This document shows positions 4,118-56,053 of a stretch of DNA of 64,000 nucleotides, piece by piece. The stretch is from assembly GCA_016180645.1 (NCBI GenBank), contig JACPAV010000002.1, forward strand, positions 174,628 to 238,627, read 5' to 3'. The notes under the pieces were generated by a model. That model searched no databases and was not told the origin of the DNA. It saw only the letters and a list, made by a program, of their open reading frames with translations. This DNA comes from Nitrospirota bacterium (GTDB lineage Bacteria > JACPQY01). The first letter of the stretch is position 1, and each line of letters begins with the position of its first letter. The translations under genes and the position numbers were made by a program.

Positions 4118-4624
4118 TCAGCAGGGCTCGACGGACCGCGGCTCGACTTCAACCGCCACGGATTGACCGAGCAGGTCTATCGAGACGATCAGGACGCCTT
4201 TCTTGTCGCAGTTCCTGACGAACTGACCGGCCAGACCTCTCAGAGGACCCCGCGTTACACAGACCACATCCCCCCCCCTGAGATAGGGGTGGGGCCGGGG
4301 CAGACCGTTGCCTAGAAGTTGCCTGACGGCCCCAATCTGATCTTCCGGAATCGCCTCAGGCCGAGCGGGATCGTACCCGATCAAGTCCACCACTCCATGG
4401 GTTTTCTTTGCGTCAAGCCAGTCCTCATAGCTCTCCTCGCATTGGAGAAAAACGTACCCCGGGAAAAGTGGGCGATTCGTCTCTACCTCACGGGATCGAA
4501 TCCAGCGCGAAGCCCGATAGGTGGGGAAAAAAACCTCGGGGAATCGATTCTTCAGAGCACCGGCGACTGCGGCCTCGTGATTGGAGCGTGTCCTTGCTGC
4601 GTACCATTCCATGGTCACTCGCAA
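4118..4624 (-). CDS. NusG-paralog transcription antiterminator (RfaH/UpxY/LoaP-like)
   Basis: N-terminal NGN domain (WYAARTRSNHE...FPEVFFP) and C-terminal KOW-like segment (GDVVCVTRGPLRGLAGQFV); 168 aa; sits at head of a long polysaccharide-type operon. Confidence 0.75.
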   Translation of the reverse strand: MRVTMEWYAARTRSNHEAAVAGALKNRFPEVFFPTYRASRWIRSREVETNRPLFPGYVFLQCEESYEDWLDAKKTHGVVDLIGYDPARPEAIPEDQIGAVRQLLGNGLPRPHPYLRGGDVVCVTRGPLRGLAGQFVRNCDKKGVLIVSIDLLGQSVAVEVEPRSVEPC

Positions 4625-12381: not shown

Positions 12382-13470
12382 TCATCGCGATTCGGCAAGG
12401 GTCGCAGACGGGCCCGGGCGCCGATCTCCCCAGATCCTCGGTCGACGGGGCTCTTGGGGTTCGAGGCCCGGCCGGCGTCCCACACAGGCATAGACTTCAC
12501 GCACGAGACTCATGATATGGGCGGCCTCCGGGAGCGTGCCGTGCGTTGGGGATCGCCCTTCGAGGATGGAGTCGACGAATTCAAACGTTTCTTTCTTCCA
12601 TGAATCGTCCCGATCGAAGTAGATGATTTCCTCCCGAGGATTGCCCAGGGCCAGCGCCTCGTCTTCGAATTGGCGCCGACCGACCACCAGTTGTTCCCGC
12701 CCATAACTGCCTGTCTGGGACAGGAGGCCCGAGAGAACCAAGTACCCGTCCCTGCACCCGACCTCGACTCGAAAGGTATGCTTCCAGAGGGTCGCGGACG
12801 AGTGCAGGAAAGCCGGGACTCCCCGTTCCGATTCGAGAAGCACGAAGGCATTGTCCTCCACCCCGCATCCCCAGAATGAATCGCGGAGAACGGCCTGAAC
12901 CACCCTCATCGGGCCGCAGAAAAATTGAAAGAGATCCAGCATGTGGACTCCCTGGTCCAGCAGGATTCCCCCCCCCGACACCTCGTATCGATTCCGCCAA
13001 TTTTCCCGATAGTTCAATCCGCCGGACTTGCCGTAGGTGGCCTTAAGGTGAATGACCTCCCCCAACCCGCCTTCTCCCAGAAATGCCTTCGCCGCCTGGA
13101 CGGATGGGTGGAGCCTGTGGTTGAACCCGAAGACGATCCTCCGACGGGTCTTCCCCGACACGGCCTCTGCGATCCGAGAAAAATCCTCCCAGTTCCGGCC
13201 CGGCGGTTTCTCACAAAAGACATTTCCGCACCGTTCCAACGCTTCCACGCAGAGGTCTACGGTCACATCGTTCGGTGTGCAGACAAACGCCGCGCCTACG
13301 TCGCTCCAGTCTACCTCCTCCGAGGACGTCACCCAGGCCACATCCCCGCCGGTCACCGGGACAGGACCGGCAGGCTCCACGATCCAGATCCTGCCGACGC
13401 GCGGATGTTCCCGGAGAACCCGATGGCGAATTTTCCCCATGTATCCGAATCCGAAAATGACGCAGTTCAC
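12382..13470 (-). CDS. Gfo/Idh/MocA family oxidoreductase (second paralog)
   Basis: MNCVIFGFGYMGKIRH Rossmann start, VCTPND and EKPPG motifs; 362 aa. Confidence 0.7.
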   Translation of the reverse strand: MNCVIFGFGYMGKIRHRVLREHPRVGRIWIVEPAGPVPVTGGDVAWVTSSEEVDWSDVGAAFVCTPNDVTVDLCVEALERCGNVFCEKPPGRNWEDFSRIAEAVSGKTRRRIVFGFNHRLHPSVQAAKAFLGEGGLGEVIHLKATYGKSGGLNYRENWRNRYEVSGGGILLDQGVHMLDLFQFFCGPMRVVQAVLRDSFWGCGVEDNAFVLLESERGVPAFLHSSATLWKHTFRVEVGCRDGYLVLSGLLSQTGSYGREQLVVGRRQFEDEALALGNPREEIIYFDRDDSWKKETFEFVDSILEGRSPTHGTLPEAAHIMSLVREVYACVGRRPGLEPQEPRRPRIWGDRRPGPSATLAESR

Positions 13471-24110: not shown

Positions 24111-25148
24111 TCATAGCCGGCGATACTCGACCATGAGGGCATCCACGATCTTGCGGGGGTGCCAGTGCTGAACCATGAACTCCCGCGAGTTCCTTCCGGT
24201 TTCCATGCGATGGTCCCCATCCGAGATCAGCCGCCCGAGCACGGTTTCAAGCTCGGCCGAATCCCCCGCGGCCAGCCAAGGCAGTGCATCGGTTCCCGCA
24301 AACCGCGCCGCCTCCGAGCGGGTCCTCTCCGCCAGACGGGCAATGGTGGGGGTGCCTTGGCTCAAAGCTTCGAGCGACGACACGCCGAAGTATCCCTGCA
24401 AATGATCGAAAAAGATGTGGCAGTTTCGCTTCCGCTCCAGGCACTCGGAGTGGGGGACGTTTTCAATGAGGTCGAGGTCCAGGAAACCGTTGTATCGGGC
24501 CTTGAGACCCGCGTAGACGCGCACCAGGAGTTCGGTGTCCTTGATCTCCTTCTTGGTCGGCGACTGACCGATTCTTACTCGTGACTCGTGAGTCGCGACT
24601 CGTGACTCGTGGGGAAGGTAGAGTGGATCGTCGATGGGAACGAGATTGGGTATCCACGTGGCCTCCGGAAGAAAATCCAAGAGGTCCGGCGTGCTGACCA
24701 GAAATGTTCTTCGAGAACTCTGCGCGCGGAATCGAGCCGGATCGGATCGAAGGGGCTCGCCATGTTGATGGTAGATCGCCCTTTTCCCCTTCATGAAATC
24801 CTTGGCCCTGAAAGGACCCAGAGGCGTTTCCTCATCGGCAAAGGCGTGAAAGTGAAAGAGATCGGCATCGCGGAGAACCTGTTCGATCTCCTCCACGTTC
24901 GAGGTTCGATGACCTCCACGAAGGGGGAAATGCCGCGGGAGGGCAGGAGCCCGGAGCGGCCGTTCGACATCCGACGATTCCGGAACATGGATGTCCTTCC
25001 TGTAGTTGAAGTTGTATTTGACGGCCGTGGTCACCAGACGGCAGGAATGTTCGGTGTGACGGTTGATCGCATCGGTGAAGGCGATCCCCATCCCGGCGGG
25101 ATCATTGGTGCAAATCATGAGGATGCGCATCCCAATTCCCCTCGGCAC
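24111..25148 (-). CDS. glycosyltransferase-like protein carrying an in-frame heptanucleotide repeat
   Basis: C-terminal SSLEALSQGTPTIA region resembles a GT-B donor-binding motif; contains HESRVATHESRV encoded by the tandem heptamer array. Confidence 0.5.
   Translation of the reverse strand: MPRGIGMRILMICTNDPAGMGIAFTDAINRHTEHSCRLVTTAVKYNFNYRKDIHVPESSDVERPLRAPALPRHFPLRGGHRTSNVEEIEQVLRDADLFHFHAFADEETPLGPFRAKDFMKGKRAIYHQHGEPLRSDPARFRAQSSRRTFLVSTPDLLDFLPEATWIPNLVPIDDPLYLPHESRVATHESRVRIGQSPTKKEIKDTELLVRVYAGLKARYNGFLDLDLIENVPHSECLERKRNCHIFFDHLQGYFGVSSLEALSQGTPTIARLAERTRSEAARFAGTDALPWLAAGDSAELETVLGRLISDGDHRMETGRNSREFMVQHWHPRKIVDALMVEYRRL
24577..24611. repeat. tandem heptanucleotide array (ACTCGTG x2, AGTCGCG, ACTCGTG x2) inside a coding region
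   Basis: Five adjacent 7-nt units read directly; central GAGTCGCGACTC is palindromic; encodes HESRVATHESRV in frame. Confidence 0.7.
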
Positions 25149-27099: not shown

Positions 27100-27144
27100 T
27101 TGTCTCCCAGCGTGAGGGGCCGACTTTGCATCGGCGTATTCGCG

Positions 27145-28120: not shown

Positions 28121-29983
28121 CTACGCGCGAGAGGAGCGCATGCTCTGCTGCAGTTCAAACAGGGCATGCTCAACCAGCCTTCCCATCAACGGGATGTCTC
28201 CCACAAGATTCACAAGGAATGCCTGCCCCGATTCCAGGTGCCGCGCAAGCTGCTCCGAGCCCGACGTTGATTCGCGCCAGGGCCGAAGAACCCGCCGGAC
28301 CAAGGGTTTCGCCACCGCTGAAATCAGCCTGGAGGGAGCCGCCCGATCGGCCACATCGCTGACGAAACTGCCGATCCGCAGCCTTCGTTCCTCCAAGATC
28401 GAGGCGGCGTCTCCATCCGCGGGCCGGCGCCCTATCTCCCCCCACCTCTCGAAGAGATCTCCCATCCGGGCTGAAAATGAGTGGAGTGCTGTTCTTTCTT
28501 CCACAAGGGAGTCGTACAGCCGGCACAGGCTCTCGCGATCCACGGGGGCATCCGCGAGAAAATTCCCGGAAAGATCTCCTCCATTCCAAGCGCTGTCCCG
28601 CGGCAATGCGGCGACCTCGGACCGCAATTCGTCCAGCGTCATCCGCACCGATCCTCCGGTCTCACCACCCGCCACATCACTCAACACGACTTTGAATCCC
28701 CCCCCCTGCCGGTAGCCCGCCCCCATCTCCAAAAGGAAGCGCCTATCCGCCAATCGGTCGTACGCGCTGGGATCGGAAGCATCGGCCGGGTCGAGGTCGA
28801 CCCAGAACGTGCGGTCAAACCATGCCCCGCAAAGAACCGCGGCATCCACGGGGGCGGAGAGACCGAGAGGAAGGTGGAGAGCAGTCGAATCACCCGACAC
28901 CACCCTCTCCATCCATGCGCCAAGATCATCCTGCGCGCGCGCATACACCACCGGTCGCTCAGGGGAATCTTTGAAGGCCAGGGGATCGGCGTCCAAGGGG
29001 AGCACGGCCAGCGCCGGGTCACGAGGGGAACGGGCATCCGCCCCGAAGCGCAAGCGCGGTTGGATTCCCGATGCCGTGCCGGACGTCGCCGTCCCCTCCG
29101 CTCCGCTCCACGGACGGCGAAATGAATTTTCATAGGGTCCTGTCGCCGCGACCACGGTTCGCGCTTCGATCGCTCCCATCAGATCCGCCGGAAGACGACC
29201 GGCGCAGCCGCTGTTCAACACCACCGCGTTCAGCCAGACCTGCCGATCGGGCCGGGGCTGGACCCCGCGGCCTTTCCACAGCCACGGCAGATTCTCGAGC
29301 GAGCGGAGCAGGATCCGACGGGATTCGGTTGCCGGGATTTCCACCTGTCGCCTGAACAGGGACAACCGGCAAGCCGCTCTGCCTTGGATTCTCGCCACCC
29401 TGTCGGTGAACGATTTTGCATAGCCGGGAAGAATCAACCACGAGACCCGGAGGCCGATCCGAAGTGAAGCGTCCATCGCCTTGTTGAAGTGGGGTTCATC
29501 GTGAACGAGTACCAACCGATCTGGCACAAAGAGGCTTCCGTAGTCAATCCGGCCCATGAGGTCGGCCAGCAGGGCTCGGTCCGGCTCATACAGGATGACC
29601 TTCGCGGAGGTCCGGTCCAGAAGTTCGCGCACGTGGTAGCCCAAGCCAAGACCCACCACGAGGACCAACTCCGCACCGGTATCCACCGCCGTCTGGACAA
29701 GTCCCTTGGCCTCGAGCACAGGATGGAAGGGGCTGTGGAGGAATTCGCTCTTGTACTTGAGCGTCGGCGGTCCGGCGCGGGAGGGCAGGATGTCAACCGC
29801 CCCGACTTCACCATCGCCAAGCTCCGGGATCGAACCTCGGACAACTCGGCGGAACGCTTCGGAGTTGCTCGCCCAGCGGAGCCGGCGACGCGGGGATCCG
29901 GTCGCCGTTCCGTTGACCGTCTCCGGCGCGGAGCCGCCGGGGAGGCGTTCAGCGAGCGGCAGGTTGCCGGCCGAGCGGCTCAT
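28121..29983 (-). CDS. Maf-like (motility-associated-factor / DUF115 type) putative nonulosonate transferase, paralog 2
   Basis: ELVLVVGLGLGYHVREL aligns with VDVVVMMGVGLGYDLKE of the adjacent paralog. Start uncertain: track start 30052 overlaps the upstream gene; ATG at about 29983 chosen. Confidence 0.4.
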   Translation of the reverse strand: MSRSAGNLPLAERLPGGSAPETVNGTATGSPRRRLRWASNSEAFRRVVRGSIPELGDGEVGAVDILPSRAGPPTLKYKSEFLHSPFHPVLEAKGLVQTAVDTGAELVLVVGLGLGYHVRELLDRTSAKVILYEPDRALLADLMGRIDYGSLFVPDRLVLVHDEPHFNKAMDASLRIGLRVSWLILPGYAKSFTDRVARIQGRAACRLSLFRRQVEIPATESRRILLRSLENLPWLWKGRGVQPRPDRQVWLNAVVLNSGCAGRLPADLMGAIEARTVVAATGPYENSFRRPWSGAEGTATSGTASGIQPRLRFGADARSPRDPALAVLPLDADPLAFKDSPERPVVYARAQDDLGAWMERVVSGDSTALHLPLGLSAPVDAAVLCGAWFDRTFWVDLDPADASDPSAYDRLADRRFLLEMGAGYRQGGGFKVVLSDVAGGETGGSVRMTLDELRSEVAALPRDSAWNGGDLSGNFLADAPVDRESLCRLYDSLVEERTALHSFSARMGDLFERWGEIGRRPADGDAASILEERRLRIGSFVSDVADRAAPSRLISAVAKPLVRRVLRPWRESTSGSEQLARHLESGQAFLVNLVGDIPLMGRLVEHALFELQQSMRSSRA

Positions 29984-31817: not shown

Positions 31818-32877
31818 ATCCGCCGCCCCTGAAGAGGGAGGCCTCCTTGAGAACGTCGCGCCATTGGGCGACGAAGCGGTCCATGGAAAACTGACTCTCA
31901 ACCGTCCGGCGCGCCTCCCCTCCCATCCTCGCCGCCTCTTCGGAAGAGTCGAGCAACTCGCGGAGGCGAGATCGTAGCGCGCCGACGTCCGACGTAATGT
32001 ATCCATTCACGCCGTTCCTGATCGGCGAGGACGTATTCCACGTCGAGAGGACCGGCGTGCCCGCGGCCATGGCCTCCAACATGCAAAGCGTGTACCCGTC
32101 CTCCAGCCCCTCCACGGTCGTGTTCACGAACAGACGCGCGCTTCGATAAATATCCTTCAGTTCATCGAACGACGAGGCCGATTCACTTTTCACGCCCTGG
32201 TCGTTATCCCCCACCACGCGGAGCGGAAATCCGTCGCAAATGGCCAGGAGGTCCCGCAGGCCCTCTTTCGCGCGGGAAAGGCCGTTGCACACCCTCAGCG
32301 CGCTCGCCACTTCGCCCGTGTGGTCGGGAAAATCGGAAATGTCGATGCCGTGCACAATCACGCGCGAGGGGCATCGCAGCCCCCAGTTCTTCCGCTTGAA
32401 CTCCGAGATAAAAACAAAGAAGACATTTCCGGATTTCAGGAAAAGCCTCTGCAGAGATCTCAGGAATTCCCGCTTCCGGAGGGCCTGGCCGAGAAGGTCC
32501 GTTTCGGAATAGGGGAACGCATTATGGAACACGAGCACTTTCCCGGAAGGGCTCGCGATGCACGCCAGGAGATCCTCCACATCGTGGCAAACGATCGCAT
32601 CATAGTAGGCGTCTCGGCTCCGTTCCTTCATGTCGCTCTCGGAGATCAGCCGGGCGTTGGGAGGAAGCGGGCGAAGTCGGGGATTCCACGCGCGCACGTA
32701 GCCCAAGCTGGGAATGTGCCGTTCGCAGATATCGAATTCGTGTCCCGTCCTTGCGAGGTTGCACAGATACGGTTCGTGCCGGCAGAAGGTCAGTATCCGG
32801 AGGGTTCGACGCGAGGCCCCGATGACGTTTCCATTCGTCGTCCCGGAAGCGAAGCGGAGGGGGCGCGTCGTACCCAT
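31810..32877 (-). CDS. glycosyltransferase, GT4-like
   Basis: CMLEAMAAGTPVLST motif. Start set to ATG (MGTTRPL) at 32877, adjacent to the upstream stop. Confidence 0.6.
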   Translation of the reverse strand: MGTTRPLRFASGTTNGNVIGASRRTLRILTFCRHEPYLCNLARTGHEFDICERHIPSLGYVRAWNPRLRPLPPNARLISESDMKERSRDAYYDAIVCHDVEDLLACIASPSGKVLVFHNAFPYSETDLLGQALRKREFLRSLQRLFLKSGNVFFVFISEFKRKNWGLRCPSRVIVHGIDISDFPDHTGEVASALRVCNGLSRAKEGLRDLLAICDGFPLRVVGDNDQGVKSESASSFDELKDIYRSARLFVNTTVEGLEDGYTLCMLEAMAAGTPVLSTWNTSSPIRNGVNGYITSDVGALRSRLRELLDSSEEAARMGGEARRTVESQFSMDRFVAQWRDVLKEASLFRGGGYA

Positions 32878-34204: not shown

Positions 34205-34225
34205 CCCCTCCTTACGAAGGAGGGG
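34205..34225 (-). other. intercistronic stem-loop CCCCTCCTT-ACG-AAGGAGGGG spanning the upstream stop codon
   Basis: Perfect 9-bp inverted repeat with 3-nt loop; contains the TAA stop of the 944-aa gene and lies about 15 nt upstream of the SD of the next gene; one arm is itself SD-like. Confidence 0.4.
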
Positions 34226-37046
34226 AACCTCCTTCGTCCAGCCGGCGAGGAAAGACATCTGCCCCCTCCTCCCCTTTGTGCGGGGAGGCCGGGGGGGGTG
34301 GAGCTTCCGAGACTCGAACCAAGAGCCTCCGCGCGCCCCCGTGCCCCGGGTTCAGGGCCAGGAGCCGCTTGATTTCATCCATGCAGTCGGTTTCCTGCCC
34401 CGTTTCGGAAAGGAAAAGGATCAGGAGGTACCGGACCTCGTAGTCGGCGGCATGGAGGGCCAGGTAGTTCCTCAGGTGGCGAAGGGCCTCGCGCTTGTGT
34501 TCCATGGAAGCGGCACACGAGGCGAGGCCGATGACCGCCCGGCGATGATCACCGTTCCCGTCGATGAGGCCGCAGAAAATATCGCGGGCTCGGGCGTGGT
34601 CTTTCAGTTGAACCCGGAGCGCTGCAATTTCAACCAGCCGATCCGGGTCGCTCCCGGCTTCGCGGGCCAACTCGTCGACTTCGTGAGATACCTTGCCGGC
34701 GCCTTCCGACACGATCCTCACCTGAAGCAGCCCCACGCGACCGGCGAAGGATTCAGGGTCCACCGCGAGGAGGGATTCGAAGGCCCGCGCCGCTTCGTCC
34801 ATCCTCGCCGCCGCCAGCTTGCCCTCTCCGAGCAGCAAGTAGTACTCGCATAGCCGTCGCTCATGCAGCGAGAAGCGGGAGGAGACATGGGAAAGCACCT
34901 GAAAGGCCTTCGCAAGTTTCTTGGAACCCAGCAGGGCTCGCACCAGGGCCAGGTGGGATTCCGGCTTAGTTTCGTCGAGTCGAACGGCTTCCTCGAACTT
35001 CTTGGCCGCCTCATCCCACTGGGCCGAGTCCAGATGGGCTCGGCCTTCCGAGAGCAGGCGGGCAATGACCTGCTGCCTCGGGCGCGCCCGGAGGAGGTAC
35101 TGGAACGTCCTCATTTCATCGGCTGCGTTTTCCGCGTCGCTCCGCAGCTCCGCGGCAACCTTCTGAAGGCCCGGCAGGATGGCGTGCGGCGGCGTGGTAC
35201 GCGCGCCCATTTCCTCGATCACCCAGCCGGTGGTTTCGAACAGGCTCCGAATTTCCTGGAGCGTGAAAAATCGCACGTGGTCCCGATCCAGAATCCCCTC
35301 CTCCGCGTAGGACCATCGTCCGGACAGGAGTTGGCCGATCACGGACCAGTGGCCGACGTTCGGGACACTGGATACGACGCACCCCTGGGGCGTGAGCCGG
35401 GCCTGAAGGCCTTCGAGCAGGCCCCACGGGTCGTCAAGGTGCTCCAACACGTCGGACAGAACGATACAATCGAAGGTCTCGTCGCCCAGCGTCTTCGGGT
35501 CCCGCGCGTCCCCCGTGATCACCCGGTCCAATCGGCGCGCGGCCTCTGCCGCTGCTTCTTCCACCATCTCCACTCCCGTGATATGGACCCACGGTCGTCG
35601 GGTTTTCAGGTACGCACCGAAGCCGCCGGTGGCGCATCCGACATCGAGGATCCGTTCGGCCTCCCGCGGGATGAGCGGCTCGACTTCTTCCCTCGAATGC
35701 GAGTAGTAAACGAATGACCTCCCGCGAAAACTGCGGGTCTCCATCATCCCCATGGCCAGATGGGCCGTCCGCTCCGCCGCCTTGCCGTCGTCCATGTAAT
35801 TCAGTTCGTAGATGGAACGAGGACGCTTCAGCTCGAACTCCTGCGCGAGGGCGGCATCGTACAGTACGCGCCGTATCGCCTCGGCCAGGCCCGGAGCGTC
35901 CGTCACCTGGAGCACCGGATCGTGCGGCTGAAAAAGGGGATCGTGATAGCGCACGACCGGGAGGTTGATCACCGGTTTGCCGCACAAGATGCCGGCGACC
36001 CCCAGGAGGGAGTCCGCGCACACGACGGCATCCGAAACGTAGACGATGGGCTCGGGGTTCGCATCTCTTTCCACGATGCGGACGCGGGCCACTCCGGCCG
36101 AATCCGCCTTCCGGCGATACCACTCCTTTCCCTTCTGATCCGAGGGATGCAGCTTCACCAACCAGTCGCAGGATTCCGACTCCAAAGCCCGCGCCGCCTG
36201 GAGGAAGAGATCGTAGGCGCGCTCGACGAGAGCCGGGTCCGAGTGCGTGGACAGGCCGTGGGTCCAGGTCGAACAGTAGAGAACGATTTTCCGATCCGGC
36301 TGGAGATCGAACTTCTGCCGGAGAGCCGCCGCCCGTCCGCTGTTCCGTAGAGAATGATAGACGTCCCAGTAGGGGGCGCCGGTCACCACGATATTCTTAG
36401 GATCGTTTCCCCACCGAAGATACCACTGCCGGGTCCGCTCCCCCTGCACGGCGATCCGGTCCGCCCAGATCCGATCGTGGGCGTTGTGGAAAAGCGCCCC
36501 CATGCCGTGGAGCATGTGGAGCACGGGGATACCCCGTTTCCTGAAGAAGAGCGCGAGGGTCTTTCCATCGAGTAGGACGTCTTCCCAAAGGAGGGCGAGT
36601 TGGGGGCGATATCGCTGGACGGCCTGGTCGAGCATTTCAACCAGCAGAATTTGCTCCCGGATGCGTTCCCGCTTGAAGTGTTCCGCCGCCAATTGGGCGG
36701 CCACAACCCACGGTTCGGGCCAACCGAGATTCGTGGGCCAGAATCCGGGGAGTGGACGTTTCTCGTAGTCGTCCAAGATGCCCGCCATGGAAGGATTGAG
36801 CGACGCCTCGCGCACGTCCTTTTCCAGCTCGGGGACAACGGACACGCAATCCACTCCCACCTTCGTGAGCGTGGAAAAGATGTTTTCGCCGTAGACGAGA
36901 TAGGTGCTCGGACGGATCCGCTCGATTTCCTGGATCACCGGCAGGTACGCCGTGCCCACATAGGTGAAGATGGCGGGCTTGTCAACCACGGGTCGCCTCG
37001 CGTGGGGGGGGGGAAGAAATGGGAACAAGCTTGGAAAAGACGGCAA
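34212..37046 (-). CDS. multidomain protein: TagF-like (HP motif) transferase domain + class I SAM methyltransferase + TPR repeats
   Basis: CSTWTHG and LVKLHPSDQ resemble CDP-glycerol glycerophosphotransferase motifs; RILDVGCATGGFGAYL methyltransferase motif I; C-terminal TPR-like helical repeats; 944 aa. Start uncertain; G10 tract near 5-prime end. Confidence 0.5.
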   Translation of the reverse strand: MPSFPSLFPFLPPPHARRPVVDKPAIFTYVGTAYLPVIQEIERIRPSTYLVYGENIFSTLTKVGVDCVSVVPELEKDVREASLNPSMAGILDDYEKRPLPGFWPTNLGWPEPWVVAAQLAAEHFKRERIREQILLVEMLDQAVQRYRPQLALLWEDVLLDGKTLALFFRKRGIPVLHMLHGMGALFHNAHDRIWADRIAVQGERTRQWYLRWGNDPKNIVVTGAPYWDVYHSLRNSGRAAALRQKFDLQPDRKIVLYCSTWTHGLSTHSDPALVERAYDLFLQAARALESESCDWLVKLHPSDQKGKEWYRRKADSAGVARVRIVERDANPEPIVYVSDAVVCADSLLGVAGILCGKPVINLPVVRYHDPLFQPHDPVLQVTDAPGLAEAIRRVLYDAALAQEFELKRPRSIYELNYMDDGKAAERTAHLAMGMMETRSFRGRSFVYYSHSREEVEPLIPREAERILDVGCATGGFGAYLKTRRPWVHITGVEMVEEAAAEAARRLDRVITGDARDPKTLGDETFDCIVLSDVLEHLDDPWGLLEGLQARLTPQGCVVSSVPNVGHWSVIGQLLSGRWSYAEEGILDRDHVRFFTLQEIRSLFETTGWVIEEMGARTTPPHAILPGLQKVAAELRSDAENAADEMRTFQYLLRARPRQQVIARLLSEGRAHLDSAQWDEAAKKFEEAVRLDETKPESHLALVRALLGSKKLAKAFQVLSHVSSRFSLHERRLCEYYLLLGEGKLAAARMDEAARAFESLLAVDPESFAGRVGLLQVRIVSEGAGKVSHEVDELAREAGSDPDRLVEIAALRVQLKDHARARDIFCGLIDGNGDHRRAVIGLASCAASMEHKREALRHLRNYLALHAADYEVRYLLILFLSETGQETDCMDEIKRLLALNPGHGGARRLLVRVSEAPPPPASPHKGEEGADVFPRRLDEGGSPPS

Positions 37047-37209
37047 TCAATTCCTGTAGCAGGTCGTATTCAAGCGTGGCGGCCAGCGGGACGCCCTTGT
37101 ACGTAAGCGAACGCGCCACCGCGGGGTCCGTGCTCCACGCCAGGAGGTACTCATCCACCGTGAGGTCCAGCCGGCACCCCGTGCAGAGCGGCATCTCCTT
37201 CCACATCAT
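36982..37209 (-). CDS. small zinc-ribbon-like protein, paralog B (5-prime end possibly disrupted)
   Basis: Homologous by eye to the 40109-40351 ORF (shared CxxC...CxxC, W, LEY, KL positions). Only the second CxxC lies after the first ATG at 37209; the first knuckle is upstream with no canonical start and abuts the heptamer arrays. Confidence 0.3.
   Translation of the reverse strand: MMWKEMPLCTGCRLDLTVDEYLLAWSTDPAVARSLTYKGVPLAATLEYDLLQELIAVFSKLVPISSPPPREATRG
37004..37013. repeat. homopolymeric G10 tract (C10 on coding strand) in the 5-prime region of the TagF-like/MTase/TPR gene
   Basis: Read directly; encodes the PPP of FPFLPPPHARR. Confidence 0.6.
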
Positions 37210-37250
37210 TTCCGCGGTCCGGTGGTGACACCAGCCACAGGAAGGGCTGA

Positions 37251-37313
37251 GTGCCGAGTGCCGAGTGCCGAGTTTCTCGGACTCAGGACTCGGGACTCGG
37301 GACTCGGGACTTT
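37251..37313. repeat. twin heptanucleotide tandem arrays: (GTGCCGA)x3 and (GGACTCG)x4 flanking GTTTCTC
   Basis: Read directly; immediately downstream of the PIG-L stop. The two arrays are imperfect inverted copies of each other. Confidence 0.7.
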
Positions 37314-37319
37314 CGTTGC

Positions 37320-38003
37320 TCACTGTTCGATGCTCCTCACCAGCACGAATGCCTCTGCCGCGCCCAGCCCACAGTGGATGCCCCACTTCTTCGCATAAAC
37401 ACGCAACGATTCCGGCGACCGGGGATGGCCGTTGGCGCCGACCTCGCCCCGGTACTGCAAGAAGGCGTGAATCTTGGTTTCCAAAGTCCGGGAAATATCG
37501 CTGAAGGCGTTCGGCGTGAACGTGTTCTGCGCCCCGTAGATGTTCCACTCGGTCGAAGAGGGCGTTTCAAACGCGAAGATCCTTCTTACGGTTTCCCCGT
37601 GAATCGGCCGGAAGGCGGTCAACACAGCCTGATAGGTAATGCGGTGGTCCACGTTCAGGTCTCCCCAGAAATGGGTGTAGACGACTTCAGGGCGAAACTG
37701 TTTCTTGATCCGTTCAATGGTCTTGACCATGTCGAGGAGAGACATCGTATCGAAACGATTGTCGGGCAGGCCGAGGAAATGCACCCGCTCCACCCCCAGA
37801 ATGTCCGCGCTCCGGCGGCAGTACGTTCGAAGCGCCGAGACCAGCCGCTTGGGTGCGTGTTCCCGTCGTTCGAATCGCGCCGTGGCGCCTTCTCCCAGGA
37901 TGACCGTGTGGATCCGGTGCCCCTTGCGGGCCAGGCGGGCCATGGTGCCGCCGCAGCCAAGCACTTCATCATCCGGATGGGCGGCAACGACCAATACATT
38001 CAT
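37320..38003 (-). CDS. PIG-L/LmbE family N-acetyl-sugar deacetylase
   Basis: MNVLVVAAHPDDEVLGCGGT with the HPDDE zinc-binding motif; ATGA overlap with upstream gene; 227 aa. Confidence 0.7.
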   Translation of the reverse strand: MNVLVVAAHPDDEVLGCGGTMARLARKGHRIHTVILGEGATARFERREHAPKRLVSALRTYCRRSADILGVERVHFLGLPDNRFDTMSLLDMVKTIERIKKQFRPEVVYTHFWGDLNVDHRITYQAVLTAFRPIHGETVRRIFAFETPSSTEWNIYGAQNTFTPNAFSDISRTLETKIHAFLQYRGEVGANGHPRSPESLRVYAKKWGIHCGLGAAEAFVLVRSIEQ

Positions 38004-38752
38004 GCGGACACTCCCGATCGGATGATTTCCAGCGCCCGCGGACCCTCGTTGAGCATCAGATCGATGACAGACATGTTCGGAATGAAGGGATCGAAGCCTT
38101 GCCGATACGTAGGGTGCTGATAGTCTTGAAAAATAACCGCAATTTTCTCCCTATTGAAGGCCTCAAGGTCCATGTAGAGCCGTCCATGGGTACCCGCGTA
38201 GTATGTATCAGCTTGGAAATGCTTGCAGATCGAGACAAGCCGATGTGTGGCTAGTTCCTTTACATTCAATCGGTCGGTTGGACCGATTGAATCGGTCGAT
38301 CGGACCGATTCGATCGATCGATCGGTCAGTCTCAAGTCTGAACTCCTATACGTTCGAGGGGTAAGATTCATGCATCGAGAGACAACCTCGATAGACTTGA
38401 GACAGAGCAGGGACAGGTTCGAGCCTGACTCGGCGTAGATCGAACCGATGGGGGCTTCATACTCGGAGTAGAACGGGGCCTTCCTGTAGTTTGACTCGAT
38501 CGCTTTCAGGTGCTTCCGCCGCCAGGGCGAGCGCTCGTCCGTTTGGGTTTCGTTGATGGTTTGTCCGAAGTGGTGCTGGACCGGCACGGTGAGCCATTGC
38601 CATCCCTCGGCCGTGCGGATCTTGTTCCGGTTCTGCCAATCGTTCTTCGTGTATTGCACATCGTCGAGAAACACGAACACATCGGCACGGTCCATCTTCT
38701 CGAAATACCCGAGCCACGGGAGGTACTGCGGCTGGTGGATGGAGACGATCAT
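38000..38752 (-). CDS. WbqC-like family protein, paralog 1
   Basis: MIVSIHQPQYLPWLGYFEKMDRADVFVFLDDVQY matches the WbqC-like N-terminus. Start set to ATG at 38752 (ATGA overlap); carries an about 19-aa in-frame insertion relative to paralog 2. Confidence 0.65.
   Translation of the reverse strand: MIVSIHQPQYLPWLGYFEKMDRADVFVFLDDVQYTKNDWQNRNKIRTAEGWQWLTVPVQHHFGQTINETQTDERSPWRRKHLKAIESNYRKAPFYSEYEAPIGSIYAESGSNLSLLCLKSIEVVSRCMNLTPRTYRSSDLRLTDRSIESVRSTDSIGPTDRLNVKELATHRLVSICKHFQADTYYAGTHGRLYMDLEAFNREKIAVIFQDYQHPTYRQGFDPFIPNMSVIDLMLNEGPRALEIIRSGVSA
38265..38330. repeat. array of alternating-orientation 8-mers GACCGATT/AATCGGTC forming overlapping perfect palindromes, in frame inside WbqC-like paralog 1
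   Basis: CAATCGGTC-GGTTG-GACCGATTG, GACCGATT-G-AATCGGTC, AATCGGTC-GATCG-GACCGATT and GACCGA-TCGATCGATCGA-TCGGTC read directly; encodes TDRSIESVRSTDSIGPTDR. Confidence 0.7.
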
Positions 38753-40122
38753 GGGAGTGGCAAGTGGTGAGTGGCGAACGGCGAGTCGAGGGGGCCACGG
38801 CTCGGTTCTTTTGGCCCTTCGCTCGTCGCTCCTCGCTCGCTCCTCGTTGCTCGTTGCTCGTTGCTCGTTGCTGTCATGGCGTCCACCAACGCGCACACCC
38901 GGTCCGTGGCGCGTCCGTCGTTCAAGGCATTGAGGGTCAGGAGATCCGCCTCTCTCAACATCTCCTCCTCCATCGTCCTCGGTGCGCGAAGGGCCTCCAT
39001 GGTTTTCCGAAAGACCTCTTCCTCAGTGCGCGCTTTGAGGATCGAGGCCGCATCATTGAAGATCGTCTCCGGCACATGGAGCGAGAGCGACATAACCCGG
39101 GCGCCGTAGATCAGCGCCTCGACGGCCATCGTCGATTGAAAGCAAATCACCACGTCCGACGCCCTGAGCAGCGGCGCCAGCGCGGGCGCCAAGGAAAGGT
39201 GTCGCGGGTAGGTCGAGTGGACCCGGAGACCCTCGGCTTGAGCCAGCGCCTCATACTCTTTGTCCGCATAGGGATCGGAGGGATGGGGTTTCAAAACCAA
39301 CTGGAAGGCCCGGGCCTTTTGGGCCCGAGCGAGCGCGCGGAACGTATCGGCCATGACGTCTCCCGGCCGATAGGAATGCTCCCGGAGGTACAGACCGCTC
39401 CGCCACGTGGTGGCCAGACACACCACGGGGAGACCGCTCTGCAGCCCGATCTCGCGCAACGCCCTCGACTTCTCCCATTCGCCGCGGAGGCGGTAGTGCA
39501 GGTCCATGACGACCGATCCCGTGACGGCCAATCGATCTTCCGCCACGCCCGCCCGCCGGTACCAATTCCGGCAGCGCTCCCCGAACACAGACATGATGTC
39601 CGCATACACACGGTCATGCAGATTGGCCAGTCCGGGCAGCCCATGCGCGAGGCAGAGGCTGGGAACGCCATAGGCCCTCGCCAATTGAATCGCCACCCGC
39701 TGGAGGGGCCGGACGTCGTTGTCCACCATCAGCAGGCCCAATCCGCCCTCGACCGCCATTCTCTTGACGGCCACCGCAATGCCCAGCATCTGGCGGCTCA
39801 GGTTGGAGAACCGTGGCGCGAGACTCTCGTAGATTTTCACATCGGCGTATCCCCGCTCGGACAAGGCCGCCTCGAAGCCCATCGCCAAGCGGGCGCAGTC
39901 CTCCGGACTCTTCTCCAGGACGTAGCGGTCGATCGCCGCCAAGTCGCCCGGATCGAACAACGTCTCCAGGGAGGCCACGCTCCCCCCCCCCGATTTCCGG
40001 ATGAAATCGTAGGTCGTCGGGTTCACCACGAGGTCGTGCCGGGATGCCAATCTCCGGCAGAGGTGCTCATACCTCTGGTTCAGCAGCGCGAGAATTCGGA
40101 CCGGCACGTCAGGACCCTCCAT
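38749..40122 (-). CDS. TagF-like (CDP-glycerol glycerophosphotransferase-type, HP motif) putative transferase, paralog 1
   Basis: VVCLATTWRSG (PTWR-like) and QLVLKPHPSDP motifs; 457 aa. The C-terminal about 45 aa is encoded by heptamer arrays and may not be native; G10 tract near 5-prime end. Confidence 0.5.
   Translation of the reverse strand: MEGPDVPVRILALLNQRYEHLCRRLASRHDLVVNPTTYDFIRKSGGGSVASLETLFDPGDLAAIDRYVLEKSPEDCARLAMGFEAALSERGYADVKIYESLAPRFSNLSRQMLGIAVAVKRMAVEGGLGLLMVDNDVRPLQRVAIQLARAYGVPSLCLAHGLPGLANLHDRVYADIMSVFGERCRNWYRRAGVAEDRLAVTGSVVMDLHYRLRGEWEKSRALREIGLQSGLPVVCLATTWRSGLYLREHSYRPGDVMADTFRALARAQKARAFQLVLKPHPSDPYADKEYEALAQAEGLRVHSTYPRHLSLAPALAPLLRASDVVICFQSTMAVEALIYGARVMSLSLHVPETIFNDAASILKARTEEEVFRKTMEALRAPRTMEEEMLREADLLTLNALNDGRATDRVCALVDAMTATSNEQRATRSERGATSEGPKEPSRGPLDSPFATHHLPLP
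38755..38873. repeat. two heptanucleotide arrays (GAGTGGC-like x3-4 and GCTCGTT x4 exact plus degenerate copies) at the TagF-like/WbqC junction
   Basis: GCTCGTTGCTCGTTGCTCGTTGCTCGTT read directly at about 38847-38873; degenerate units extend upstream to about 38821; second array at about 38755-38790 directly upstream of the WbqC ATG. Confidence 0.7.
39982..39991. repeat. homopolymeric C10 tract (G10 on coding strand) in the 5-prime region of TagF-like paralog 1
   Basis: Read directly; encodes the GGG of IRKSGGGSVAS. Confidence 0.6.
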
Positions 40123-40351
40123 CCGGCGGGGAGAAGCGCGCCCCCAACTTCTCCATCGTCAACATGAAGATCTCGTACTCCAAGGCCCCCGCGAAGCTCT
40201 CCCCATCCCAGCGAAGGATGTCTTCCGCGGCTTCGCTCGCGCTCCATTCCGACAGCGCCGCGAGGACCTCCTGGTCGGTATGGCAGAGTTCACACACGGT
40301 GCCGTTCAGGCGCGACCCTCCAAGACCGCAGCGTTCGCACCTATCCTGCAT
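40109..40351 (-). CDS. small zinc-ribbon protein, paralog A
   Basis: MQDRCERCGLGGSRLNGTVCELC with two CxxC knuckles; 80 aa; lies between WbqC-like paralog 2 and TagF-like paralog 1. Confidence 0.4.
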   Translation of the reverse strand: MQDRCERCGLGGSRLNGTVCELCHTDQEVLAALSEWSASEAAEDILRWDGESFAGALEYEIFMLTMEKLGARFSPPDGGS

Positions 40352-41117
40352 GGCCTGCCGCCTCCCATGCGCTCTGCGTCGGGGCCCGACGCGCCTCAGA
40401 AGCCCGAAATGCGGGCCTCCGACCGGAACGAAGGATCTCCAGGCTCGCGGGACCGCAGTTCAGGAGCAGGTCCACCGCCGAGAGGTGTGAAACGAAGCCC
40501 TCGAATCGTTGGGGATAGACGGGGTGATCGTAGTGGTGGAAGCGCAATCGGACCCCCGAGTCCGAAAAGATTTCGGAATGTTGAAGATACGCTCGCGCGC
40601 CAAGCGGGGAGAGGTACTCATCCGCCCCCAGGCTCTCGCAAATGGAGACAAGGTAGTCCACCCGGTCCACTTGCTCCACGTCCAACTCGGAAGCCCGGAT
40701 GAACGGCGTGCGAATTCCCAACCGCGCCGCCAGCGCTTCCACAAGCGGAATCGTCACCTCCACCAAGCGGTCTTCCTCCGACCGTGCAAGCAGCGTGGAG
40801 AGAAGGGCATCGCCATGATCCCTCCACGACTCCGCGCGGCGATAGGCAACTTCGATCGATCGCGCGTGCCGGCGGATCCATTTCCCCTGAACGATCCTCG
40901 CCTCGCGGAGGGATTGGCCCAGCGGGTCCTTCCGCGTGAGCGGCAGCGTCAGCCAGCACCAGCCTTGGTCGGTTCGGATGCGGTTCCGGTGATGCCACGA
41001 ATGCCGCACGCGCTGCACCGTGTCCAGAAACACGAAGGTGTCGACCTGGTCGATCATGTCGAAATATCCAAGCCAGGGCAGGTAGTGCGGTTGGATGATG
41101 GCCACCGTCTTTCTCAT
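40341..41117 (-). CDS. WbqC-like family protein, paralog 2
   Basis: MRKTVAIIQPHYLPWLGYFDMIDQVDTFVFLDTVQ; start set to ATG at 41117. Confidence 0.65.
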   Translation of the reverse strand: MRKTVAIIQPHYLPWLGYFDMIDQVDTFVFLDTVQRVRHSWHHRNRIRTDQGWCWLTLPLTRKDPLGQSLREARIVQGKWIRRHARSIEVAYRRAESWRDHGDALLSTLLARSEEDRLVEVTIPLVEALAARLGIRTPFIRASELDVEQVDRVDYLVSICESLGADEYLSPLGARAYLQHSEIFSDSGVRLRFHHYDHPVYPQRFEGFVSHLSAVDLLLNCGPASLEILRSGRRPAFRASEARRAPTQSAWEAAGHAG

Positions 41118-41154
41118 CACCCGGCTCCCCTGTCGCATGACACCTGACGCATGA

Positions 41155-41844
41155 CTATTTTCGCCCCTCCACCAGCCAGTCCGAATCGGTCCGACCCGGC
41201 GCGCTTCCCACCTTCGCATATCCGATAAACCGCTGACGAAACCCGGCCGTCAGCGCATCGACGGCCGCCGCGTCGACAAACGTCACCGACATCCCCTCCT
41301 CACCGGTCTCGTTCGAATTCATGAGAAAGCAATGGGGAGCCAGCTCCCGCCCCCGCCCGTATCGGGAGTCATCCGTTCCCCGCAACGAGAAGAAGGCCCA
41401 CCCCCCCGGTTTCAAGAGTCGACGAATTTCCATGATGCCCGCGGCGGTCTCCTCGGGCCTGCCGTAGTAGAGGACGCCATAGCAGATGACCGCATCGAAG
41501 GCGTCCGACTTGAGAGGCACGTCCAGGAAGGTGCCCACGGCCAGCCGCCCGGGACTCCTCTCCGTTCGGATGCATCGGCGCAGGGAACGTCTCGCTCCAT
41601 CGATCCCGACGACGTCGAATCCTTCTCTTTTCAGCATCACGAGGTGCCGTCCTCCGCCGCATCCGAGGTCCAGAACGCGCTTCGGCCGCCGACGATTCCA
41701 AGAGCGAACGAGCCTCCGAGATACGAACCGGACGACATGATCGACAGGGTAGCGGGGGACCTTGTCGAGATTCTCCCGCGCGTAGAAGATTTCCCAGGGA
41801 GTGCCGGTGTTGTTCCTCTCTTGAACCGGTGTGGCGATCCCCAT
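41155..41844 (-). CDS. class I SAM-dependent methyltransferase
   Basis: RVLDLGCGGGRH motif I and DAVICYGVLYY; start set to ATG (MGIATPV) at 41844. Confidence 0.6.
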   Translation of the reverse strand: MGIATPVQERNNTGTPWEIFYARENLDKVPRYPVDHVVRFVSRRLVRSWNRRRPKRVLDLGCGGGRHLVMLKREGFDVVGIDGARRSLRRCIRTERSPGRLAVGTFLDVPLKSDAFDAVICYGVLYYGRPEETAAGIMEIRRLLKPGGWAFFSLRGTDDSRYGRGRELAPHCFLMNSNETGEEGMSVTFVDAAAVDALTAGFRQRFIGYAKVGSAPGRTDSDWLVEGRK

Positions 41845-55159: not shown

Positions 55160-56053
55160 CTAGAAGATCTCATCCTTCCTCTTCTGGAGATCCGCCGCCA
55201 TTTGCTTGGCCAGTTGATTCAGGACGCCCGCCTCGGGCAGAAGTTCGTCCGGCGCCTCGAGAACGGCCCTCAGGTCCTCGTCGAACTGCTTTTCGTCGTT
55301 CATCAGCGTGTCGTAGTATTGCGCCCGGAGCACACGGATCATGAGAAATCGACCCTGAGTCGCCTTGAGCGCTTCCTCGAATTGCAACCGCGCCTGATCG
55401 GCCCCCCCCCCGGCCACGGCGGGAAGCGTCGCGTAAAAGACACCAAGGAAAACCCGCGGGCTGCTGAAGAAGTAGTCCGGATCCACCTGATTCACGCGGA
55501 ACAGGAGCGCCCGCACATCCGGAAGGTCGAACAGGGAGTCCACATCCATGAGATGGAGATTCACGTACGCGGCCCATGCCGTGAGCGTCCAGAACATGGC
55601 GTCCATGTCCTCCTTGTCAAGTCGCCTGACCGCAAGATCGAACGCCTCGCCTTTCTCGAGCGCTTTCGCGAACCCACGATGGGTCTTGAGCGCGCGCAAG
55701 CCGAAATCCCTCGCCTTGATGTACATGGCCGAGGCCCGCGATGGATCCGTTCTCTCAAGAAACGCCTGCGCGTAGCCTGCGAACGACCGGCAGGCCAGAA
55801 CGAGGAGGTCCCGGTGCTCCGGGTTCTGTTCCACCATCGCTTCGAGGAGCAGGAGGCTCGTAGGGGCGGCATCCCGTAGGAGAGCCAGATCAGTCTGCCG
55901 CTCGGCCACAGCCGAGAGGGCCTGGAGCTGACCGATGATCTGGTTCGCAGCCATCCGGCGGACGGCGCCGCACGAAGACGTAAAGAGTGATGAGTAAAGG
56001 GTGATGAGGAGGAGCAGAGGCCGTACGACTTGCCGGGGCTTCACATCACTCAT
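55160..56053 (-). CDS. TatT-like TPR lipoprotein associated with TRAP transporters
   Basis: Lipoprotein-like signal (LLLLITLYSSLFTSSC) and helical TPR-like body; adjacent to the TRAP binding protein; contains a G10 tract encoding AGGGA. Confidence 0.5.
   Translation of the reverse strand: MSDVKPRQVVRPLLLLITLYSSLFTSSCGAVRRMAANQIIGQLQALSAVAERQTDLALLRDAAPTSLLLLEAMVEQNPEHRDLLVLACRSFAGYAQAFLERTDPSRASAMYIKARDFGLRALKTHRGFAKALEKGEAFDLAVRRLDKEDMDAMFWTLTAWAAYVNLHLMDVDSLFDLPDVRALLFRVNQVDPDYFFSSPRVFLGVFYATLPAVAGGGADQARLQFEEALKATQGRFLMIRVLRAQYYDTLMNDEKQFDEDLRAVLEAPDELLPEAGVLNQLAKQMAADLQKRKDEIF
55402..55411. repeat. homopolymeric C10 tract (G10 on coding strand) inside the TatT-like gene
   Basis: Read directly; encodes GGG in AVAGGGADQ. 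Confidence 0.6.

What the first reader, a model, noticed from the sequence alone, without database searches (positions are those of the whole stretch)
37004..39991. Both TagF-like paralogs carry a 10-nt G:C homopolymer near their 5-prime ends
G10 at about 37004-37013 encodes PPP and C10 at about 39982-39991 encodes GGG, each within the first about 50 codons of the two paralogous TagF-like genes. Homopolymeric tracts of this length are classic slipped-strand phase-variation sites in nonulosonate glycosylation loci. Caution: by a simple composition estimate a 64-kb GC-rich sequence is expected to contain roughly one to two runs of 10 or more by chance, so the argument rests on the paralog-specific 5-prime placement, not on enrichment.
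Basis: partly seen in the sequence, partly recalled or inferred. Interest (0 to 1): 0.55.

Follow-up and report, generated by a model that had tools for sequence, protein, structure and literature searches.

The report
Two G:C runs in glycosylation genes
Two real 10-base G:C runs lie in a sugar-decoration gene cluster of an uncultured groundwater bacterium, but only one is inside the enzyme gene it was assigned to, neither changes length between samples, and similar runs occur in unrelated genes, so they are possible on/off switches, not shown ones.

Summary
Both runs exist exactly as reported: G10 at 37004-37013 and C10 at 39982-39991. Both genes are on the minus strand and are true paralogs (29% identity, E=3e-26).

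- **Gene 2 (38749-40122):** the run covers codons 44-47 (Ser-Gly-Gly-Gly) in a non-conserved loop. A slip of one base truncates the 457-aa protein to 94 or 169 aa. This is a plausible translational switch, currently ON.
- **Gene 1:** orthologs place the start at GTG 36989. The run lies 15 nt upstream of it, in the tail of a conserved 113-aa Cys-rich upstream ORF (36982-37323). A slip changes that tail or fuses the two ORFs. It does not switch gene 1 off.
- **Enrichment:** two synonymous-shuffle nulls show long runs are enriched (>=10: 3 observed vs 0.4 expected; >=9: 6 vs 1.5; P about 0.003-0.007). The others sit mid-gene, in frame, in NusG-like, Gfo/Idh/MocA, Maf-like and TatT genes.
- **Variation:** every independent assembly has the same length (MAG plus 4 runs for gene 2, MAG plus 2 for gene 1). 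Syntenic relatives lack both runs.

Verdict: slippage-prone sites, with phase variation unproven and the "paired 5-prime placement" argument not supported.

The parts
39982..39991 (-). G10 on the coding strand of gene 2: third base of codon 44 (TCG) plus codons 45-47 (GGG GGG GGG), giving S-G-G-G
   Evidence: The length is identical in 4 independent Logan assemblies.
38749..40122 (-). Gene 2: 457-aa GT-B-like putative nonulosonic-acid transferase (NCBI HYT87_00935, annotated from GTG 40107, 452 aa). In frame (ON) with G10.
   Evidence: G9 gives a 94-aa product and G11 a 169-aa product.
40109..40351 (-). small2: 80-aa Cys-rich ORF (CxxC...CxxC, EYE motif). Its stop overlaps the gene 2 ATG by 14 nt. 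NCBI HYT87_00940.
   Evidence: Homologous to the ORF that precedes the gene 2 ortholog in L004.
37004..37013 (-). C10 on the coding strand: codons 104-107 (S-P-P-P) of small1. Ends 15 nt upstream of gene 1's GTG and 4 nt upstream of its GAGG.
   Evidence: Identical in 2 Logan assemblies.
36982..37323 (-). small1: conserved small Cys-rich ORF. It is 113 aa from a GTG that overlaps the PIG-L stop; NCBI annotates 75 aa from ATG 37209 (HYT87_00920). Its TGA overlaps gene 1's GTG by 8 nt.
   Evidence: 47-54% identity to the small ORFs at the same position in L003 and L004.
36996..36999 (-). GAGG Shine-Dalgarno-like motif, 6 nt before gene 1's GTG
   Evidence: Read directly from the sequence.
34212..36989 (-). 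Gene 1: 925-aa protein with a TagB/KpsC-like GT-B domain, a SAM methyltransferase domain and TPR repeats. Start is GTG 36989.
55402..55411 (-). Third 10-nt run: G10 on the coding strand, G-G-G at codons 217-219 of a TatT TRAP-transporter component, outside the glycan island
   Evidence: Invariant in 2 further assemblies.
28698..28706 (-). G9 on the coding strand, in frame, about codon 450 of a 643-aa Maf-like protein
12968..12976 (-). G9 on the coding strand, in frame, in a Gfo/Idh/MocA oxidoreductase (S-G-G-G-I-L-L-D)
4270..4278 (-). G9 on the coding strand, in frame, about codon 117 of a 168-aa NusG-like protein

Best explanation
The two runs are genuine 10-bp homopolymers whose length is the same in every assembly examined. 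They lie in a roughly 48-kb nonulosonic-acid/Maf surface-glycosylation island of a groundwater Nitrospirota MAG.

Each run sits in one copy of a duplicated two-gene module: a small Cys-rich ORF followed by a TagB/KpsC-like GT-B putative nonulosonic-acid transferase. The two positions are not equivalent.

1. 39982-39991 is inside transferase gene 2, at codons 44-47, in a loop that orthologs do not conserve. A +-1 slip destroys the protein.
2. 37004-37013 is in the non-conserved C-terminal tail of the small ORF upstream of transferase gene 1. C10 gives the native-looking tail (PPPREATRG) and a stop that overlaps gene 1's GTG. C9 or C12 would fuse the two ORFs into 1036-1037 aa. C8 or C11 would give a 128-129-aa small protein that runs about 65 nt into gene 1.

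Any G:C run of 10 must slip at an elevated rate; this is an inference from established SSR biology. My preferred reading is that these runs belong to a general excess of long G:C runs in this genome. Such runs could arise from GGG/CCC-rich codon usage plus run-extending substitutions. I do not think they form an evolved, paired phase-variation system. Gene 2's run remains a credible but unproven ON/OFF site. The gene 1 run cannot act as a simple ON/OFF switch for gene 1.
For: - **Anatomy and start codons:**
- **Slip consequences:**
- **Where the long runs are:** all six runs >=9 are in frame and five of six are not 5'-proximal. They occur in NusG-like, Gfo/Idh/MocA, Maf-like and TatT genes as well.
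- **Enrichment is window-wide:** 5 runs in the 48-kb island versus 1 in the 16 kb outside it, which is proportional.
- **No length variation:** MAG plus SRR12113425/431/385/390 for gene 2; MAG plus SRR12113425/385 for the gene 1 site; two extra runs for TatT. All are 100% identical to the window.
- **No slipped products on record:** no predicted G9, G11 or C11 product is in the 15-billion-protein collection.
- **Relatives lack the runs:** syntenic loci L003-L006 keep the module but have only G5 at the gene 2 site and no run at the gene 1 site. There the small ORF and gene 1 are separated by 44-112 nt.
- **The observed frame looks native:** the C10 frame reproduces the weakly conserved P-R-E tail of the small-ORF orthologs.
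Against: - Runs >=9 and >=10 are 4-7 times more frequent than two synonymous nulls predict (P 0.003-0.007). This holds even though GGG|G and CCC|C contexts are slightly avoided overall. That pattern is what selection for mutable tracts would give.
- Both 10-nt runs in the island fall within 170 nt of the start codons of the two copies of one module. By a rough post hoc estimate of mine this is unlikely for random placement.
- Flagellar and surface-glycan modification genes are the classic homes of poly-G phase variation in Campylobacter (PMC6321876).
- Consensus assemblies cannot reveal minority length variants.
Confidence: 0.55

Rival explanations
1. Evolved contingency locus. The G10 in gene 2 is a slipped-strand translational ON/OFF switch that varies a nonulosonic-acid decoration of flagellin or another surface glycan, for example to escape phage. 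The other long runs in the island (Maf-like G9, small1 C10) belong to the same phasome.
For: - In-frame 5' run with truncation on +-1.
- The run sits in a non-conserved loop and its codons are all GGG preceded by TCG.
- Excess of long runs over two nulls.
- Island context with Maf, NeuB and CMP-sugar synthetases.
- Precedent of poly-G in maf and flagellin-modification genes (PMC6321876, PMC13130089).
Against: - No consensus length difference across 4 samples plus the MAG.
- No slipped products on record.
- Orthologs lack the run.
- An equally long run sits in TatT, outside the island.
- The genome is 61% GC, with GGG at 31% of Gly codons and CCC at 38% of Pro codons.
Confidence: 0.3
2. Three-state coupling/fusion switch at the small1-gene 1 junction. 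C10 gives two proteins with stop-start overlap, that is, translational coupling. C9 or C12 gives a single small1-transferase fusion. C8 or C11 lets small1 ribosomes run about 65 nt past the gene 1 start and uncouple or occlude it.
For: - The frame arithmetic is exact.
- The 8-nt GTGGTTGA overlap and the SD lie just 3' of the run.
- Some distant homologs carry an N-terminal extension of about 90 aa that weakly resembles the small-ORF core (hhalign E=0.0012, probability 20%).
Against: - In relatives the small ORF and gene 1 are separate and not overlapping.
- The similarity to the fused homologs is weak.
- The local RNA fold is not significant (z=-1.4).
- No C9 or C11 variants were seen.
Confidence: 0.08
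3. Sequencing or assembly error at a homopolymer. The true length differs, so that for example small1 and gene 1 are really one gene.
For: Homopolymers are error-prone, and the run lies exactly at a frame junction between two ORFs.
Against: - Three independent assemblies agree on C10 and five on G10.
- The C10 frame gives an ortholog-like tail and a separate gene 1 start that matches the orthologs.
- NCBI annotates the small ORF as a separate gene, and the Logan gene calls give gene 1 as its own 925-aa ORF.
Confidence: 0.03

Closest known systems
Poly-G/C simple-sequence-repeat phase variation of flagellin-glycan modification genes in Campylobacter (maf1/maf4/maf7, cj1295 groups; PhasomeIt, PMC6321876; maf3, PMC13130089)
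   Same: A G:C homopolymer of at least 7-8 nt lies inside the reading frame of a glycan-modifying gene in a nonulosonic-acid/Maf island. A +-1 change truncates the product (gene 2). Paralogous genes each carry runs.
   Different: - No length polymorphism was found here.
- The host is a 61% GC environmental Nitrospirota MAG, where such runs arise far more easily than in 30% GC Campylobacter.
- The run is not conserved in orthologs.
- One of the two runs is not in the transferase ORF.
- Comparable runs occur in a transporter gene and a NusG-like transcription-factor gene.
Tannerella forsythia Pse/Leg-derivative transferases (Tanf_01245, TFUB4_00887, BFO_1060; PMC5420450), TagB-like GT-B with an HP motif
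   Same: Both paralogs give their best named NCBIfam hit to this family. Both carry an HP motif (KLHPSD, KPHPSD). Both sit among NeuB and CMP-sugar synthetase genes.
   Different: Scores are 47-48 bits against a cutoff of 200, so they are not members. Gene 1 adds methyltransferase and TPR domains. Each gene is preceded by a small Cys-rich ORF, a feature I did not find mentioned in the passages of PMC5420450 that I read.
TagF/TagB CDP-glycerol glycerophosphotransferases (Pfam PF04464) and KpsC/KpsS (PF05159)
   Same: Gene 1 passes both Pfam gathering scores marginally (25.4 vs 22.1 and 30.6 vs 20). It has a weak KpsC match in the PDB (E=0.005).
   Different: Gene 2 matches neither family. No teichoic-acid or Kdo context is present. 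The likely donor is a CMP-nonulosonate; this is an inference from the locus.

Membership tests
SSR-mediated phase-variable (contingency) gene | A repeat tract placed so that a change in length alters expression (in the ORF, or in the promoter spacer) | tested here: met
   Gene 2 only. G9 gives 94 aa, G11 gives 169 aa, and G10 gives the full 457 aa.
SSR-mediated phase-variable (contingency) gene | The same placement criterion, applied to the gene 1 paralog | tested here: not met
   The run is 15 nt upstream of the ortholog-supported GTG start and 5' of the SD, so SD-start spacing is unaffected. No sigma-70-like promoter was found in 36800-40500. A slip alters the small upstream ORF instead.
SSR-mediated phase-variable (contingency) gene | Tract-length polymorphism between or within populations | tested here: not met
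   This was tested at consensus level only. G10 appears in the MAG plus 4 SRA-run assemblies, and C10 in the MAG plus 2. No slipped-frame products are in the protein collection. Read-level heterogeneity cannot be tested with these tools.
SSR-mediated phase-variable (contingency) gene | Over-representation of long tracts relative to composition and coding constraints | tested here: met
   Runs >=10: 3 observed vs 0.42-0.44 expected. Runs >=9: 6 vs 1.5. P=0.003-0.007. The excess is window-wide and not specific to these genes.
SSR-mediated phase-variable (contingency) gene | The tract recurs in homologs or related strains | tested here: not met
   L003-L006 have no G/C run >=7 at either site and only G5 at the gene 2 site. 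No same-species strains were available.
SSR-mediated phase-variable (contingency) gene | Reversible, high-frequency switching of a phenotype | not testable with these tools
   The organism is uncultured and no read data were available.
TagF/TagB-like glycerophosphotransferase (Pfam PF04464) | Score above the Pfam gathering threshold | tested here: inconclusive
   Gene 1 scores 25.4 bits against a cutoff of 22.1, which is marginal. Gene 2 has no hit and gives only Epimerase_2 at 22.8, below its cutoff of 30.6.
BFO_1060 family glycosyltransferase (NCBIfam NF046086) | Score above the curated cutoff of 200 bits | tested here: not met
   48.6 bits for gene 1 and 47.4 bits for gene 2. This is similarity, not membership.
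GT-B fold with an HP motif (as in sialyl/nonulosonate transferases) | Conserved His-Pro motif in the C-terminal Rossmann half, and a GT-B fold | tested here: inconclusive
   H280 and P281 are invariant in alignment A1, and KLHPSD is present in gene 1. The fold was not confirmed because the AlphaFold model reached only pLDDT 46.

The most novel reading that the evidence does not exclude
A free-living groundwater Nitrospirota bacterium uses long G:C runs as contingency loci in its flagellin or surface nonulosonate glycosylation island. This would include an unusual junction switch in which one poly-C run toggles a small Cys-rich partner protein and its transferase between three states: separate and translationally coupled, fused, and uncoupled.
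Probability: 0.12. Interest if true: 0.6.

Novelty: new member of a known kind. Interest (0 to 1): 0.3.

Why it matters
If the gene 2 run really switches, it would extend homopolymer-driven phase variation of nonulosonate glycans from host-associated pathogens to an uncultured environmental lineage. That would point to phage or grazing pressure as the driver. As it stands, the value of the work is corrective. One of the two "5' tracts" is a start-codon artefact, and long G:C runs are a general feature of this window. The locus also shows a conserved, duplicated, undescribed module (small Cys-rich ORF plus TagB-like transferase) that deserves annotation.

Tried and rejected
- **Homolog search with a hypothetical C9-fused small1-gene 1 protein.** It found only one distant hit and not even the parent protein.
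- **Relatives in genome contigs and metagenome contigs**, and a variable-length DNA pattern across the gene 2 run. All found nothing, so no strain-level comparison was possible.
- **Exact look-ups.** Gene 2, in both its 457-aa and 452-aa forms, is not on record. The flanking small2 ORF was used instead. A look-up of the 533-aa right-edge ORF also failed.
- **AlphaFold model of gene 2 from a 5-sequence alignment.** It reached pLDDT 46 and was unusable, so no fold search was run.
- **PDB sequence search.** Nothing significant for gene 2 and only weak KpsC matches for gene 1.
- **Promoter-spacer phase variation at the gene 1 run.** Rejected: no promoter-like hexamers were found and the run lies inside an ORF 5' of the SD.
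- **RNA structure around either run.** Not significant, with z=-1.4 and +0.9.
- **Island-specific clustering of runs.** Rejected: 5 of 6 long runs fall in an island that covers 75% of the window.
- **Literature.** A search found no paper addressing homopolymer phase variation in Nitrospirae.


Full report
**Observation.** The + strand carries G10 at 37004-37013 and C10 at 39982-39991, exactly as reported. The window is 61.3% GC. It also holds a third 10-nt run (C10 at 55402-55411) and three 9-nt runs (at 4270, 12968 and 28698). Nearly all genes, including both genes of interest, are on the minus strand.

**Source.** Gene 2 is identical to NCBI MBI2058311.1, locus tag HYT87_00935, from a "MAG: Nitrospirae bacterium" contig of 369,728 bp. 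Logan assemblies of four SRA runs contain contigs 100% identical to the window: SRR12113385, SRR12113390, SRR12113425 and SRR12113431.

**Locus context.** Pfam scans show that window 1-48.3 kb is one large nonulosonic-acid and surface-glycosylation island. It contains:
- two NeuB genes and five CTP_transf_3 cytidylyltransferases;
- DegT aminotransferase, formyltransferase, PIG-L deacetylase and two WbqC genes;
- many methyltransferases and GT1/GT4 glycosyltransferases;
- two B12-radical-SAM enzymes;
- a Maf (MptE-like) protein and a Maf-like protein;
- a NusG-like protein.

**The two "TagF-like" genes.** They are true paralogs, with 29% identity over 285 aa and E=3e-26.
- Gene 1 (925 aa) has a GT-B-like N-terminal half that marginally passes Pfam Glyphos_transf (25.4 vs 22.1 bits) and Capsule_synth (30.6 vs 20). 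This is followed by a SAM-methyltransferase domain and TPR repeats.
- Gene 2 (457 aa) passes no Pfam family.
- Both give their best named hit to NCBIfam "BFO_1060 family glycosyltransferase" at 47-49 bits, against a cutoff of 200. That family is named after the Tannerella forsythia putative pseudaminic/legionaminic-acid-derivative transferases, described as TagB-like GT-B enzymes with an HP motif (PMC5420450).
- Both window proteins carry an HP motif, KLHPSD in gene 1 and KPHPSD in gene 2.
- "TagF-like" is therefore a loose label. A CMP-nonulosonate transferase role is an inference from similarity and context.
- The family is rare near these sequences. Gene 2 has only three relatives at about 50% identity in 5.8 billion proteins. 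Gene 1 has one relative at 57% (P0006) and then hits at 38% or below.

**Where the gene 2 run lies.** With the ATG at 40122, the run is the third base of codon 44 (TCG) plus codons 45-47 (GGG GGG GGG), giving ...IRK-S-G-G-G-S.... At this position the orthologs read NPAGA, PPGVV and PPGAA. At DNA level they have only G5. The Gly triplet is therefore lineage-specific and sits in a variable segment. G9 would give a 94-aa product, G11 a 169-aa product, and G10 gives the full 457 aa. This site has the anatomy of a translational phase switch and is currently ON.

**Where the gene 1 run lies.** The mechanical ORF (TTG 37046, 944 aa) does place the run at codons 12-14 (PPP). That start is not supported.
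- P0006 (913 aa) aligns from its residue 3 to query residue 22, so its Met corresponds to the GTG at 36989.
- The N-termini match: P0006 has MQEKPVVF, L004 has VSEKPVVF, and the window has MVDKPAIF.
- The Logan gene calls use the same start and give 925 aa.
- A GAGG lies 6 nt upstream of this GTG.

The run therefore ends 15 nt before the start and 4 nt before the SD. It lies inside a second minus-strand ORF, small1 (36982-37323).
- small1 is 113 aa from a GTG that overlaps the PIG-L stop (GTGA). NCBI annotates 75 aa from ATG 37209 as HYT87_00920.
- It has high third-position GC by inspection.
- It is 47-54% identical to small ORFs at the same position in the syntenic loci L003 and L004/L005.
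- The conserved features are CxxC(...)CxxC, W-x3-P, YKG and EYDL. The run encodes S-P-P-P in the variable tail that follows this core.
- The observed frame ends ...PPPREATRG*, which resembles the ortholog tails ...HPREDRT* and ...PARKEGRQG....
- A paralogous small ORF, small2 (40109-40351, 80 aa, HYT87_00940), precedes gene 2. Its homolog precedes the gene 2 ortholog in L004-L006.

The unit that is duplicated is therefore "small Cys-rich ORF plus transferase".

Consequences of slippage at the gene 1 site:
- C9 or C12 fuses small1 in frame to gene 1, giving 1036-1037 aa.
- C8 or C11 gives a 128-129-aa small1 with a new tail that ends about 65 nt inside gene 1.
- None of these removes gene 1's own SD and start.

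No promoter-like site is present and local RNA structure is not significant.

**Is it more than chance?** Two nulls were run, each with 3000 replicates over about 89% coding coverage.

| Run length | Observed | Synonymous-codon shuffle within genes | Dinucleotide-preserving third-base permutation |
|---|---|---|---|
| >=9 | 6 | 1.56 expected, P=0.004 | 1.48 expected, P=0.003 |
| >=10 | 3 | 0.44 expected, P=0.006 | 0.42 expected, P=0.007 |

- Overall, GGG before G (0.287 vs 0.315) and CCC before C (0.338 vs 0.398) are slightly avoided. The excess is therefore confined to the longest runs.
- All six long runs are in frame. Five are poly-G on the coding strand and encode Gly-Gly-Gly.
- Besides small1 and gene 2, they lie in a NusG-like protein (about codon 117 of 168), a Gfo/Idh/MocA oxidoreductase (codon 193 of 389), a Maf-like protein (about codon 450 of 643) and a TatT TRAP-transporter component (codon 217 of 299, outside the island).
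- Only gene 2's run is 5'-proximal.
- Five of the six are in the island, which covers 75% of the window, so there is no island-specific clustering.
- A rough post hoc estimate of mine suggests it is unlikely by random placement that both island 10-mers fall within 170 nt of the two module start codons. The many paralog pairs in this island weaken that argument.

**Variation.**
- Gene 2's run is G10 in L007-L010, from four runs.
- The gene 1 site is C10 in L001 and L002, from two runs.
- TatT's run is G10 in L012 and L013.
- All these contigs are 100% identical to the window.
- Predicted G9 and G11 products of gene 2 and the C11 product of small1 are absent from a 15-billion-protein collection. 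The wild-type small1, small2 and gene 2 products are present.
- Syntenic relatives (L003 at 61% GC; L004-L006 at 66% GC) have no run >=7 at either site.

**Interpretation.** A 10-nt G:C run must be slippage-prone; this follows from established SSR biology, for example the cut-offs and rates discussed in PMC6321876. Gene 2's run is therefore a legitimate candidate translational switch. The specific argument offered does not hold, because one run is not in the paralog. The wider pattern fits a genome-wide tendency to carry long G:C runs better than a dedicated paired switch: comparable runs in transport, transcription and sugar-redox genes, no variation, and no conservation. I put about 0.55 on the incidental reading. 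I put about 0.3 on a real contingency function centred on gene 2, about 0.08 on a coupling/fusion switch at the small1-gene 1 junction, and about 0.03 on assembly error.

A weak lead bears on the fusion idea. Some distant homologs (P0009, P0011, P0061, P0066) carry an N-terminal extension of about 90 aa whose WYLHP...Y.G...E[YF] segment aligns with the small-ORF core (hhalign E=0.0012, probability 20%).

**Novelty.** At most this is a new candidate member of a well-known kind, homopolymer phase variation of glycan-modifying genes, in an unusual host. The duplicated module of small Cys-rich ORF plus TagB-like transferase appears to be undescribed: the small ORFs gave no Pfam or NCBIfam hits.

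Noticed in passing
window 36982-37323 and 40109-40351 (minus strand); L003:2878-3126, L004:9935-10237, L004:6920-7204: A conserved small Cys-rich ORF (CxxC...CxxC, W-x3-P, YKG, EY[DE]L) immediately precedes each TagB-like transferase paralog, here and in syntenic relatives. It has no Pfam or NCBIfam family. Some distant transferase homologs carry a weakly similar N-terminal extension, which may be a natural fusion.
   Followed up: partly
window 37249-37311, 38755-38872, 24577-24611, 41134-41155, 55092-55121: Heptanucleotide tandem arrays lie at gene junctions. Two pairs form bulged hairpins (RNA dG -34 kcal/mol with z -4.3; dG -43 with z -2.9) and are translated into the N-terminal part of small1 and the C-terminal tail of gene 2. 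All Logan contigs break in the 38819-38872 array. A 7-nt unit would shift the reading frame if the copy number changed.
   Followed up: partly
window 55402-55411: A third 10-nt run (G10 on the coding strand, Gly-Gly-Gly) lies mid-gene in a TatT TRAP-transporter component, outside the glycan island. It is invariant in two further assemblies.
   Followed up: yes
window 4118-4624 (run at 4270-4278): A NusG-like paralog lies inside the glycan island and carries an in-frame G9 just before its KOW region. It may be an island-specific antiterminator.
   Followed up: no
L004:5310-5318: In a related 66% GC organism, a G9 run sits in the last codons of the DegT aminotransferase, 7 nt upstream of the overlapping ATG of the next methyltransferase gene. 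That is where a Shine-Dalgarno would lie.
   Followed up: no
window 25153-27144: A NeuB-family synthase is fused to a xylose-isomerase-like TIM-barrel (AP_endonuc_2) domain (663 aa). It is one of two NeuB genes, alongside five CTP_transf_3 cytidylyltransferases, suggesting that several nonulosonate pathways are encoded in one island.
   Followed up: no
window 28121-30052 and 29949-32006: Two adjacent Maf or Maf-like genes carry runs of 9 (28698-28706) and 8 (30664-30671) G:C. This echoes the poly-G-bearing maf paralogs of Campylobacter. Both are in frame and invariant in L001 and L002.
   Followed up: partly
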